Assembly (NCBI RefSeq): GCF_022846255.1
Contig: NZ_AP025682.1
Direction: 5' to 3' (one strand)
Length of the DNA stretch: 64,000 nucleotides
From: Escherichia coli
GTDB taxonomy: Bacteria > Pseudomonadota > Gammaproteobacteria > Enterobacterales > Enterobacteriaceae
The position numbers were made by a program. The first letter of the stretch is position 1; every line of letters starts with the position of its first letter. Positions 48,801 through 51,800 of the stretch are shown one piece after another.

Positions 48801-51800
48801 GGGGTGGATATCCTCAAGGAGGGCGGGAATGCCGTTGATGCTGCCGTGGCGGTGGGCTACGCGCTGGCAGTAACGCATCCGCAGGCAGGGAATCTGGGCG
48901 GCGGTGGTTTTATGCTGATCCGCTCGAAAAATGGCAATACCACGGCTATCGATTTCCGCGAAATGGCACCCGCCAAAGCGACCCGCGATATGTTCCTCGA
49001 TGATCAGGGCAACCCGGACAGCAAAAAATCACTCACTTCGCATCTGGCTTCCGGCACACCCGGTACGGTAGCGGGTTTCTCGTTGGCGCTGGATAAATAC
49101 GGCACCATGCCGTTGAATAAAGTGGTGCAACCGGCGTTTAAACTGGCACGCGATGGTTTTATCGTTAACGACGCGCTGGCTGACGATCTCAAAACCTACG
49201 GCAGTGAAGTGCTGCCGAACCACGAAAACAGCAAAGCTATCTTCTGGAAAGAGGGCGAACCGCTGAAAAAGGGCGACAAGCTGGTGCAGGCGAACCTGGC
49301 AAAGAGCCTGGAGATGATTGCCGAAAACGGCCCGGATGAATTCTACAAAGGCACGATAGCGGAACAGATTGCCCAGGAGATGCAGAAAAACGGTGGCTTG
49401 ATCAGCAAAGAAGATTTAGCGGCATATAAAGCGGTCGAACGCACACCGATAAGCGGCGATTATCGCGGGTATCAGGTTTACTCCATGCCACCGCCATCTT
49501 CCGGCGGTATTCATATCGTACAAATCCTCAATATTCTGGAAAACTTCGATATGCAGAAGTACGGCTTTGGCAGCGCCGACGCGATGCAAATCATGGCAGA
49601 AGCTGAGAAATACGCCTATGCCGACCGCTCGGAATATCTTGGCGACCCGGATTTTGTCAAAGTACCGTGGCAGGCGCTGACCAATAAAGCCTATGCCAAA
49701 TCTATTGCCGATCAAATCGATATCAATAAAGCGAAGCCATCCAGCGAAATTCGTCCTGGCAAGCTTGCGCCTTATGAGAGTAATCAAACTACCCATTACT
49801 CAGTAGTGGATAAAGACGGTAACGCCGTGGCGGTGACCTATACGCTGAACACCACCTTCGGTACGGGCATTGTCGCGGGCGAGAGCGGTATTTTGCTCAA
49901 TAACCAGATGGATGATTTCTCCGCCAAACCAGGCGTACCGAACGTTTACGGGCTGGTGGGCGGCGATGCCAACGCCGTCGGGCCGAATAAACGCCCGCTG
50001 TCGTCGATGTCACCAACCATTGTGGTCAAGGATGGTAAAACCTGGCTGGTCACCGGAAGCCCAGGCGGTAGCCGGATTATCACCACTGTGCTGCAAATGG
50101 TGGTGAATAGCATCGATTATGGAATGAACGTCGCCGAAGCGACCAATGCGCCGCGTTTCCACCATCAGTGGTTGCCGGACGAGCTGCGTGTCGAAAAAGG
50201 GTTTAGCCCGGATACGATCAAGCTGCTGGAAGCAAAAGGTCAGAAAGTGGCGCTGAAAGAGGCGATGGGCAGTACACAAAGCATTATGGTTGGGCCGGAC
50301 GGTGAGCTGTACGGTGCATCCGACCCGCGCTCGGTGGATGATTTAACGGCGGGTTATTAATATCTTAAGCCCTCTCCCGGTAGGTGAGGGCTTAAATGAC
50401 AAACTGAGATTACAAATTCTCTATTTCACCCGCGCCATATAATACGCATCGACATATTCACCATTACGCAGCGCGTACTTCTTGCCAGTCCCTTCAATCT
50501 CAAAGCCAAATTTTTTATAGACCTTAATTGCTGGCGCGTTATCGACGAACACCGTTAGCTCAATACGATCTACCCGCAACCAGTTGTCGCACATTTCAAT
50601 CATCTCTCGCATCAGGGCGCTGGCGACGCCGCGGTTCTTCCAACGGGAGTCGACACAGATACCAAAATCGGCAACATGACTGCGGCGTGGGCGTTGTTGC
50701 ACGTCAATGGTGAGATGGCCTACGACGATTCCATCAATACAGGCGACTAACTGCTTGATGCCAGGGCGAGCGGTGAGTCGTTCCAGCCACATTTGTTCTG
50801 AAGGATGAGGCACCTGTAGCGTGTTGTAATACACCTCCGGCTGGGCGTGAATCTGCCTGATGGCCTCGTGATCGCGTGTTTCTGCGTGGCGTATTACTAT
50901 CTCACTCATTCCTTTGTCCTCTTTGGGGTAAATGTCCCTTTCAACATCATTGACTTTCAAATGCGAGTCAAATGCATTTTTTTGCAAAAAGTGTTGGACA
51001 AGTGCGAATGAGAATGATTATTATTGTCTCGCGATCAGGAAGACCCTCGCGGAGAACCTGAAAGCACGACATTGCTCACATTGCTTCCAGTATTACTTAG
51101 CCAGCCGGGTGCTGGCTTTTTTTTTGATCTTTCGTTCTCAATTTATCCTCGGGAAGTGCTTGTGTTCGTTATGCGCACTCCAGTAGGAACCACGTCCGCT
51201 TTGCGCTAAGGTGTAAATAACCACCTTAAAAAGGACGAAATCATGGTCATTAACTGCGCCTTTATTGGCTTCGGCAAAAGCACCACCCGTTACCATCTGC
51301 CGTATGTACTTAACCGCAAGGATAGCTGGCATGTCGCGCATATCTTTCGCCGCCATGCGAAGCCGGAAGAACAGGCCCCCATTTATTCCCATATCCATTT
51401 CACCAGCGATCTCGACGAAGTGCTAAACGATCCCGATGTTAAGCTGGTTGTCGTCTGCACCCACGCGGACAGCCACTTCGAGTACGCGAAGCGCGCGCTG
51501 GAAGCCGGGAAAAATGTGCTGGTCGAAAAACCGTTCACTCCGACAATTGCGCAGGCGAAAGAGCTGTTTGCACTGGCGAAAAGCAAAGGGCTGATCGTTA
51601 CGCCGTATCAGAATCGTCGCTTTGATTCCTGCTTCCTGACAGCGAAAAAAGCGATTGAAAGCGGCAAGCTGGGAGAGATTGTCGAAGTGGAAAGCCATTT
51701 TGACTATTACCGCCCGGTGGCAGAAACCAAACCGGGGCTACCGCAGGATGGCGCGTTCTATGGCCTTGGTGTGCATACGATGGACCAGATTATTTCTCTG

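What the first reader, a model, noticed from the sequence alone, without database searches (positions are those of the whole stretch)
50361..50420. Short ggt-yhhY spacer: yhhZ/IS1 region recalled in K-12 is absent
Only ~60 bp separate the ggt stop from the yhhY stop. From memory, K-12 has yhhZ, yrhA, IS1 and yrhB between them, so this strain lacks that accessory patch. The adjacent yhhY-ryhB-yhhX arrangement is conserved.
Basis: partly seen in the sequence, partly recalled or inferred. Interest (0 to 1): 0.3.

Follow-up and report, generated by a model that had tools for sequence, protein, structure and literature searches.

The report
Ancestral empty ggt–yhhY spacer
This E. coli strain carries the original, unoccupied 60-base gap between the genes ggt and yhhY, where K-12 and most other E. 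coli hold a small imported toxin/immunity gene islet; this is a common, already catalogued strain difference.

Summary
Exactly 60 bp (50361-50420) separate the ggt stop from the convergent yhhY stop. yhhY, ryhB and yhhX follow as in K-12. K-12 MG1655 has 3,452 bp at the same place, holding yhhZ, yrhA (split by IS1), yrhD and yrhB. Homology to K-12 breaks at the two stop codons.

The absence is the ancestral state, not a deletion. E. albertii, E. whittamii, three other Escherichia lineages and about 35 other Enterobacteriaceae all have ggt and yhhY tail-to-tail, 35-131 bp apart. The window's spacer, hairpin included, is orthologous to the Escherichia ones.

The K-12 islet is AT-rich (34% against 50-54% GC). 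It encodes an Hcp-HNH nuclease effector and an Imm35 immunity protein.

Among 5,426 complete E. coli genomes:
- 985 have the empty site.
- 3,758 have the full islet and 336 a partial one.
- 343, O157:H7 and relatives, have an unrelated DUF4225 cassette.
- 358, the listed ones all K-12 laboratory strains, have the IS1 insertion.

The window is B2/ST131-like, and B2 carries both states on nearly identical flanks. The finding is ordinary and already known, so interest is low.

The parts
48627..50360 (+). ggt (gamma-glutamyltransferase), 577 aa, left anchor of the site
   Evidence: ORF. It is 98.1% aa and 94.7% nt identical to K-12 ggt. Matching genomes annotate it as ggt.
50361..50420 (.). 60-bp convergent intergenic spacer, the empty ancestral-type allele of the ggt|yhhY site
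   Evidence: Sequence. It has no counterpart in K-12 by blastn. It aligns along its length with the spacers of Escherichia sp. E1V33, 'E. coli' E69 and E. albertii. It is present in at least 985 of 5,426 complete E. coli genomes.
50365..50395 (.). GC-rich stem-loop (TTAAGCCCTC / GAGGGCTTAA, 11-nt loop), a probable shared 3'-end hairpin or terminator of the convergent ggt and yhhY transcripts
   Evidence: Free energy is -22.7 kcal/mol (z -4.8) on + and -23.3 kcal/mol (z -4.4) on -. The stem is kept in all 9 Escherichia spacers, with one compensatory A-U to C-G change. There is no U-tract, so the terminator scan did not call it.
50392..50420 (.). Ancestral spacer tail; this interval is replaced in islet-bearing alleles, so it marks the insertion/replacement point
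   Evidence: E. coli AHB3 has the K-12-type hairpin followed by this tail. The K-12, UPEC132 and O157-type alleles diverge from it immediately after ...GAGGGC.
50421..50909 (-). yhhY (GNAT N-acetyltransferase), 162 aa, right anchor of the site
   Evidence: ORF. Pfam Acetyltransf_1 at E 5.6e-18. It is 100% identical to SCU-111 YhhY and 94.4% to K-12.
51060..51124 (+). ryhB small RNA (conserved neighbour)
   Evidence: Rfam RF00057, 83.1 bits, E 2.8e-15. A terminator-like site lies at 51099-51117.
51243..52280 (+). yhhX oxidoreductase (conserved neighbour)
   Evidence: ORF. It is 98.6% aa identical to K-12 YhhX.

Best explanation
The 60-bp interval is the ancestral, never-occupied form of the convergent ggt|yhhY intergenic region. 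It consists of a GC-rich stem-loop just after the ggt stop, plus a 29-bp tail that reaches the yhhY stop. The stem-loop most likely acts as a shared 3'-end hairpin or terminator for the two converging transcripts; that role is inferred, not shown. In the line leading to most E. coli, AT-rich foreign DNA was inserted between the hairpin and the yhhY stop and replaced the tail. The inserted DNA is the yhhZ-yrhA-yrhD-yrhB islet. It encodes an Hcp-HNH nuclease type VI secretion effector together with immunity-type proteins. K-12 later acquired an IS1 inside yrhA. The window strain is B2/ST131-like and simply carries the unoccupied allele. It therefore encodes neither this effector nor its immunity genes at this locus.
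For: Shown:
- Homology to K-12 stops at the two stop codons, and K-12 holds 3,452 bp there.
- The five non-K-12-type Escherichia species representatives and about 35 other Enterobacteriaceae loci have ggt and yhhY tail-to-tail with 35-131 bp between them. The exceptions are noted under evidence against.
- The window spacer aligns base for base with E1V33, E69 and E. albertii, at about 87% identity to E1V33. That is the level expected for vertically inherited non-coding DNA when the flanking genes are 92-95% identical.
- E. coli AHB3 has an empty site with the K-12-type hairpin followed by the ancestral tail. This is a pre-insertion allele.
- The islet is 33.9% GC and its flanks are 50-54% GC.
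- YhhZ matches Pfam T6SS_HCP (E 1.2e-11) plus a weak HNH domain. YrhB matches Imm35 (E 4.4e-22). The literature describes YhhZ as an evolved Hcp with an HNH nuclease domain (PMC2907695, PMC5714182).
- Census of 5,426 complete genomes: 985 empty, 3,758 full islet, 336 partial, 343 DUF4225 cassette, 358 with the IS1 junction.
- The hairpin folds stably on both strands and is conserved.
Against: - Terminator function of the hairpin is not demonstrated. It has no U-tract on either strand, and the consensus scan did not call it. Covariation support is thin, with one clear compensatory pair among 9 sequences.
- B2 strains with the islet (UPEC132) and without it (SCU-111, the window) have nearly identical flanks. 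This strain's own line of descent could therefore have swapped alleles by homologous recombination. 'Ancestral' applies firmly to the allele, less firmly to the lineage.
- The outgroup sample held no E. fergusonii, and no outgroup phylogeny was built.
- Franconibacter (L032) has about 2.9 kb between the two genes, so short spacing is not universal.
Confidence: 0.9

Rival explanations
1. Secondary loss by allelic replacement. An ancestor of this B2 strain carried the islet and lost it when homologous recombination through ggt and yhhY imported the empty allele from another strain. The spacer would then be ancestral in sequence but regained in this lineage.
For: - The window's ggt is 99.5% identical to that of islet-bearing UPEC132 but only 98.1% to empty SCU-111, while its yhhY is 100% identical to SCU-111. 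The flanks are therefore mosaic.
- About 432 genomes carry an islet at least 99% identical to the B2-type islet, so both states circulate in B2.
Against: - No donor-type SNP tract is visible next to the junction. The last 1.3 kb on each side differ by only a handful of SNPs from both B2 comparators.
- The direction of any swap cannot be inferred from three genomes.
Confidence: 0.25
2. Simple deletion. The islet was excised or deleted from a K-12-like filled allele in this lineage, leaving a short scar.
For: Partial alleles exist, for example yrhB-only in A3019 and an IS1-associated 56% remnant in H177, so deletions within the islet do happen.
Against: - Filled alleles have a different hairpin (GGTTAGCGGCCCTCTTCGTGGGAAGAGGGC) and lack the 29-bp tail altogether.
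- The window has the outgroup-type hairpin and tail, which a deletion cannot recreate.
- No islet or IS1 remnants were found.
Confidence: 0.03
3. Assembly artefact, with a collapsed or mis-joined region.
For: None.
Against: The same junction is present in at least 985 complete RefSeq E. coli genomes and in several other Escherichia species.
Confidence: 0.01

Closest known systems
E. coli K-12 MG1655 yhhY-ggt interval (b3441-b3447: yhhZ, yrhA::IS1E, yrhD, yrhB)
   Same: The anchors are the same: ggt and yhhY convergent, then ryhB and yhhX. The flanks are colinear at 95-96% nt identity.
   Different: K-12 has 3,452 bp of AT-rich islet plus IS1 where the window has 60 bp. The hairpin next to ggt is a different sequence variant, and the ancestral tail is absent from K-12.
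Empty ggt|yhhY site of B2 E. coli (ST131 strains, SCU-111) and of other Escherichia (E. albertii, Escherichia sp. E1V33, E. whittamii)
   Same: The spacer is 59-70 bp with the same hairpin and tail. ST131 genomes match the 20-kb query length exactly.
   Different: The window's spacer has a few private substitutions. The best match in 5,426 genomes is 97.5% over 160 bp.
Hcp-ET1 / YhhZ-type 'evolved Hcp' effector-immunity islet
   Same: This is the cargo that occupies the site in 69% of E. coli. It comprises an Hcp domain fused to an HNH nuclease, followed by YrhA and an Imm35 protein (PMC2907695, PMC5714182, PMC6730261). The islet of O104:H4 C227-11 carries locus tags AAF13_RS24945/RS24950. The published Hcp-ET1 tag is AAF13_24945, so identity of the two is probable but not proven.
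   Different: The window encodes none of it.
O157:H7-type DUF4225 cassette at the same site
   Same: It is bounded by the same two stop codons, has the same K-12-type hairpin next to ggt, and is AT-rich at 31.8% GC.
   Different: The cargo is unrelated: a DUF4225 protein plus unannotated ORFs, 1,855 bp in all. It is found in 343 genomes, all at least 99% identical to one another.

Membership tests
Empty (ancestral-type) ggt|yhhY allele | ggt and yhhY are convergent with only a short non-coding spacer between the stop codons | tested here: met
   The spacer is 60 bp, 50361-50420.
Empty (ancestral-type) ggt|yhhY allele | The spacer is orthologous to that of sister Escherichia species | tested here: met
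   The alignment with E1V33, E69, E. albertii and E. whittamii has the hairpin and tail aligned throughout.
K-12-type yhhZ-yrhA-yrhD-yrhB islet (Hcp-HNH effector/immunity) | Hcp-HNH gene (yhhZ/tssD) and yrhA/yrhB lie between yhhY and ggt | tested here: not met
   tblastn of YhhZ, YrhA and YrhB against the whole window found no hit at E <= 1e-3. There is no room for them in 60 bp.
K-12-type yhhZ-yrhA-yrhD-yrhB islet (Hcp-HNH effector/immunity) | K-12-type hairpin variant GGTTAGCGGCCCTCTTCGTGGGAAGAGGGC next to the ggt stop | tested here: not met
   The window has TATCTTAAGCCCTCTCCCGGTAGGTGAGGGCTT instead.
IS1 insertion at this locus | IS1 sequence or the yrhA::IS1 junction | tested here: not met
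   blastn of IS1E against the window found nothing. The junction is present in 358 genomes, and all 30 listed are K-12 laboratory derivatives.
Intrinsic (Rho-independent) terminator | Stable GC-rich stem-loop at the 3' end of the transcript | tested here: met
   Free energy is -22.7 and -23.3 kcal/mol, with z about -4.4 to -4.8. The stem is conserved.
Intrinsic (Rho-independent) terminator | U-rich tract directly after the stem | tested here: not met
   The stem is followed by AAAUGACA on + and GAUAUUAA on -. The scan does not list it.
Intrinsic (Rho-independent) terminator | Transcripts end at the hairpin in vivo | not testable with these tools
   This needs 3'-end mapping such as Term-seq or 3' RACE.

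The most novel reading that the evidence does not exclude
The ggt|yhhY convergent hairpin may be a recurrent, position-specific landing site. At least three unrelated AT-rich cargos have replaced exactly the stop-to-stop tail after the same hairpin variant: the Hcp-HNH/immunity islet, a yrhB-only variant and a DUF4225 cassette. The empty and occupied alleles may have been kept together in E. coli since before the phylogroups split, as an old, possibly balanced toxin/immunity polymorphism. Two observations fit this. The flanking genes yhhY and ggt are unusually divergent, at 92.8% and 94.7% between B2 and K-12. That is as far apart as the window is from another Escherichia species.
Probability: 0.12. 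Interest if true: 0.35.

Novelty: already known. Interest (0 to 1): 0.1.

Why it matters
It matters little beyond annotation. The result establishes three things:
- K-12 is the derived state at this locus. The islet was inserted, and IS1 came later.
- The window strain is B2/ST131-like and has the ancestral arrangement.
- The strain therefore lacks the YhhZ (probably Hcp-ET1) nuclease effector and its immunity genes at this site. It could be sensitive to competitors that deliver that effector through a type VI system.

The site is a tidy example of a small toxin/immunity islet segregating at a convergent terminator, but both alleles are common and already annotated in public genomes.

Tried and rejected
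- I looked for remnants of the islet or IS1 anywhere in the window and found none.
- I looked for target-site duplications or repeats at the islet ends. The only match was a 7-mer, TATCTTA, shared between the start of the window spacer and the K-12 sequence next to the yhhY stop. I judged this to be chance and did not pursue it.
- I tested whether the window spacer could be a deletion scar of the K-12 allele. I rejected this because the hairpin variant and the tail differ.
- I looked for donor-type SNP tracts next to the junction that would date an allele swap within B2. None was visible.
- The covariation analysis of the hairpin gave only modest support, with one clear compensatory pair.
- The consensus terminator scan does not call the spacer hairpin.
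- PADLOC gave no hit for YhhZ or the DUF4225 protein.
- The genome-contig scan did not return E. fergusonii or the E. coli type strain, so those outgroup and ingroup points are missing.

Full report
**Observation**

The ggt ORF ends with TAA at 50358-50360 on the + strand. The GNAT acetyltransferase gene yhhY lies on the - strand at 50421-50909, with its stop (CTA on +) at 50421-50423. Exactly 60 bp, 50361-50420, lie between the two stop codons. RyhB is found at 51060-51124 on + (Rfam RF00057, 83.1 bits), and yhhX is at 51243-52280.

**Comparison with K-12**

The MG1655 record (NC_000913.3, locus L001) annotates these features between yhhY and ggt:
- yhhZ
- the yrhA pseudogene, split by IS1E (insA6/insB6)
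- yrhD
- yrhB

The two genes are 3,452 bp apart there. blastn of the window against this locus is colinear on both sides. The left block is 46001-50360 at 94.9% and the right block is 50418-53099 at 96.0%. The alignment breaks exactly at the ggt stop and 2 bp outside the yhhY stop. No islet protein and no IS1 sequence is found anywhere in the 64-kb window.

**Which state is ancestral**

A scan of one genome per species with YhhY returned 45 loci. tblastn placed ggt, yhhY and yhhX in them. The following all have yhhY and ggt tail-to-tail:
- E. albertii, E. whittamii and Escherichia sp. E1V33
- two further Escherichia representatives labelled E. coli (E69 and SCPM-O-B-8794)
- Citrobacter, Enterobacter, Klebsiella, Pluralibacter, Pseudocitrobacter, Lelliottia and Yokenella

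The 18 spacers I extracted measure 35-131 bp. One exception is Franconibacter, with about 2.9 kb. A contig labelled as a Flavihumibacter MAG carries K-12-like E. coli DNA with the islet and is presumably contamination.

The window's spacer aligns along its whole length with those of E1V33, E69 and E. albertii. They share the same hairpin, TTAAGCCCTC...GAGGGCTTAA, and the same tail...GATTGCAAATTCT. By my count there are about 8 differences in 60 bp against E1V33. The flanking genes are 90-95% identical to those of the outgroup Escherichia. That pattern is what vertical descent of non-coding DNA predicts. The empty allele is therefore ancestral for the genus, and the K-12 arrangement is derived.

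**Where the insertion went**

Islet-bearing alleles (K-12, UPEC132, A3019) and the O157-type allele all carry a different hairpin variant next to ggt, GGTTAGCGGCCCTCTTCGTGGGAAGAGGGC. They diverge from one another immediately after it.

One E. coli genome, AHB3, has an empty site with this same variant hairpin followed by the ancestral tail TTAAATGACAAACTTATATTGCAAATTCTTTA. This is the expected pre-insertion allele. It places the insertion/replacement interval at the equivalent of window 50392-50420.

The K-12-type allele has lost the tail completely. The window's spacer therefore cannot be a deletion scar of a filled allele.

**What the missing DNA is**

- YhhZ has a T6SS_HCP domain (E 1.2e-11) and a weak HNH match.
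- YrhB is Imm35 (E 4.4e-22).
- YrhA and YrhD have no Pfam match.

Published work describes YhhZ as an 'evolved Hcp' with a degenerate HNH domain (PMC2907695) and as a His-Me finger nuclease of a polymorphic toxin system (PMC5714182). A review lists Hcp-ET1, an HNH-DNase effector delivered by T6SS2, from O104:H4 C227-11 under tag AAF13_24945 (PMC6730261). In that genome the islet at this site carries AAF13_RS24945 (yrhA) and AAF13_RS24950 (tssD/yhhZ). Hcp-ET1 is therefore very probably the YhhZ orthologue, but I could not map the tags exactly.

The islet is 33.9% GC against 50-54% for its flanks, which is typical of horizontally acquired DNA.

**Population census**

The counts below are among 5,426 complete RefSeq E. 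coli genomes.

| Allele class | Genomes | How it was counted |
|---|---|---|
| Empty site | 985 (18%) | 160-bp query of 50 bp ggt + spacer + 50 bp yhhY, covered at least 80% in one place |
| Full K-12-type islet | 3,758 (69%) | At least 80% of the B2-type islet (UPEC132, 2,676 bp) |
| Partial islet | 336 (6%) | Any shorter match to the same query |
| DUF4225 cassette | 343 (6%) | 1,855-bp O157-type cassette, all at least 99% identical |

- These classes sum to 5,422, but I did not check genome by genome that they are disjoint.
- Up to about 232 of the partial alleles are of the yrhB-only kind seen in A3019. That number is inferred from 1,217 minus 985.
- The yrhA::IS1 junction occurs in 358 genomes, and all 30 listed are K-12 laboratory derivatives.
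- Other IS1 insertions in the islet exist in a few wild strains (H153, H160, H177).

**Strain background**

The 20 kb around the site are 99.0-99.3% identical to ST131 and other B2-type genomes, and about 96% identical to K-12-like genomes.

B2 itself is polymorphic. UPEC132 and UPEC 26-1 carry the islet, which adds about 2,616 bp, on B2 flanks. About 432 genomes have an islet at least 99% identical to UPEC132's. The UPEC132 islet is 96.5% identical to the K-12 islet. That is about the same as the flank divergence, so the islet is old in both lineages rather than recently exchanged.

The window's ggt is closer to islet-bearing UPEC132 (99.5%) than to empty SCU-111 (98.1%), while its yhhY is identical to SCU-111's. 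No donor-type tract abuts the junction. The allele is ancestral, but whether this strain's direct ancestors always had it cannot be decided here. I give 0.25 to a swap by homologous recombination.

**The spacer itself**

The stem-loop at 50365-50395 folds at -22.7 kcal/mol on + and -23.3 kcal/mol on -, with z about -4.8 and -4.4. All nine Escherichia spacers keep it, and E. whittamii shows a compensatory A-U to C-G change. More distant genera have other GC-rich palindromes at the same place.

It lacks a U-tract, and the consensus terminator scan does not call it. Its role as a shared 3'-end hairpin or terminator for the convergent ggt and yhhY transcripts is therefore an inference.

**Verdict**

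The added points are that the short spacer is the ancestral allele and that the K-12 patch is an inserted Hcp-nuclease/immunity islet later hit by IS1. Both alleles are common and already annotated in public genomes, so novelty is 'already known' and interest is low (0.1).

The most novel reading still open has two parts: that the hairpin is a recurrent landing site for AT-rich cassettes, and that the empty and occupied states form an old, possibly balanced polymorphism. The unusually high divergence of yhhY and ggt between B2 and K-12 (92.8% and 94.7%, against 96.3% for yhhX) hints at this. I rate it at about 0.12.

Noticed in passing
window 56334-59635 (+): Two overlapping genes match the PsyrTA anti-phage/toxin-antitoxin system in PADLOC. 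One is a RecQ-like helicase (PsyrT, 1064 bits) and the other a DprA-like protein (PsyrA, 671 bits). They sit between gntU (54856-56196) and yhgN/MarC (59681-60274, - strand). K-12-like genomes cover only 82% of the 20-kb query, and UPEC132 goes from gntU straight to yhgN. This is a second accessory patch in the window.
   Followed up: partly
window 48627-50909 compared with L001 (K-12) and L007 (Escherichia sp. E1V33): The genes flanking the variable site are unusually divergent between this B2-like strain and K-12. yhhY is 92.8% and ggt 94.7% nt identical, against 96.3% for yhhX. That is about as far as from another Escherichia species, E1V33 (93.6%, 94.2% and 94.8%). This may reflect old linked haplotypes or imported flanks.
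   Followed up: no
L052 (E. coli AHB3, NZ_OZ547164.1): This genome has an empty site with the K-12-type hairpin plus the ancestral tail. Its yhhY is only 83% nt identical to the window's, which is a very divergent yhhY allele for an E. coli.
   Followed up: partly
L005:5151-7005 (O157:H7-type strain 112): A different AT-rich cassette (31.8% GC) occupies the same site in 343 genomes. It holds a DUF4225 protein (5884-6795, - strand) plus an unannotated 138-aa hydrophobic ORF (5519-5935, + strand). PADLOC gave no hit.
   Followed up: partly
L003 (E. coli A3019) 1701-2131: In this 'yrhB-only' allele, only about 335 bp next to ggt match the islet. Roughly 96 bp between yrhB and yhhY were not matched by megablast, so it is not a simple internal deletion of the K-12-type islet.
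   Followed up: no
window about 48703 (ggt signal-peptide region): There is a 9-bp indel relative to SCU-111 and K-12. Ggt is 577 aa here against 580-581 aa elsewhere.
   Followed up: no
L011 (CABHOW010000200.1) and L035 (CACSKA010000004.1): Contigs labelled as a Flavihumibacter MAG and as Chryseobacterium sp. 18061 carry enterobacterial yhhX-yhhY-(yhhZ/ggt) DNA. These are probably contamination or mislabelled records.
   Followed up: no
H153, H160, H177: Some non-K-12 strains have IS1 inserted elsewhere in the islet, apparently within or next to the Hcp gene. One of them has lost 44% of the islet.
   Followed up: no
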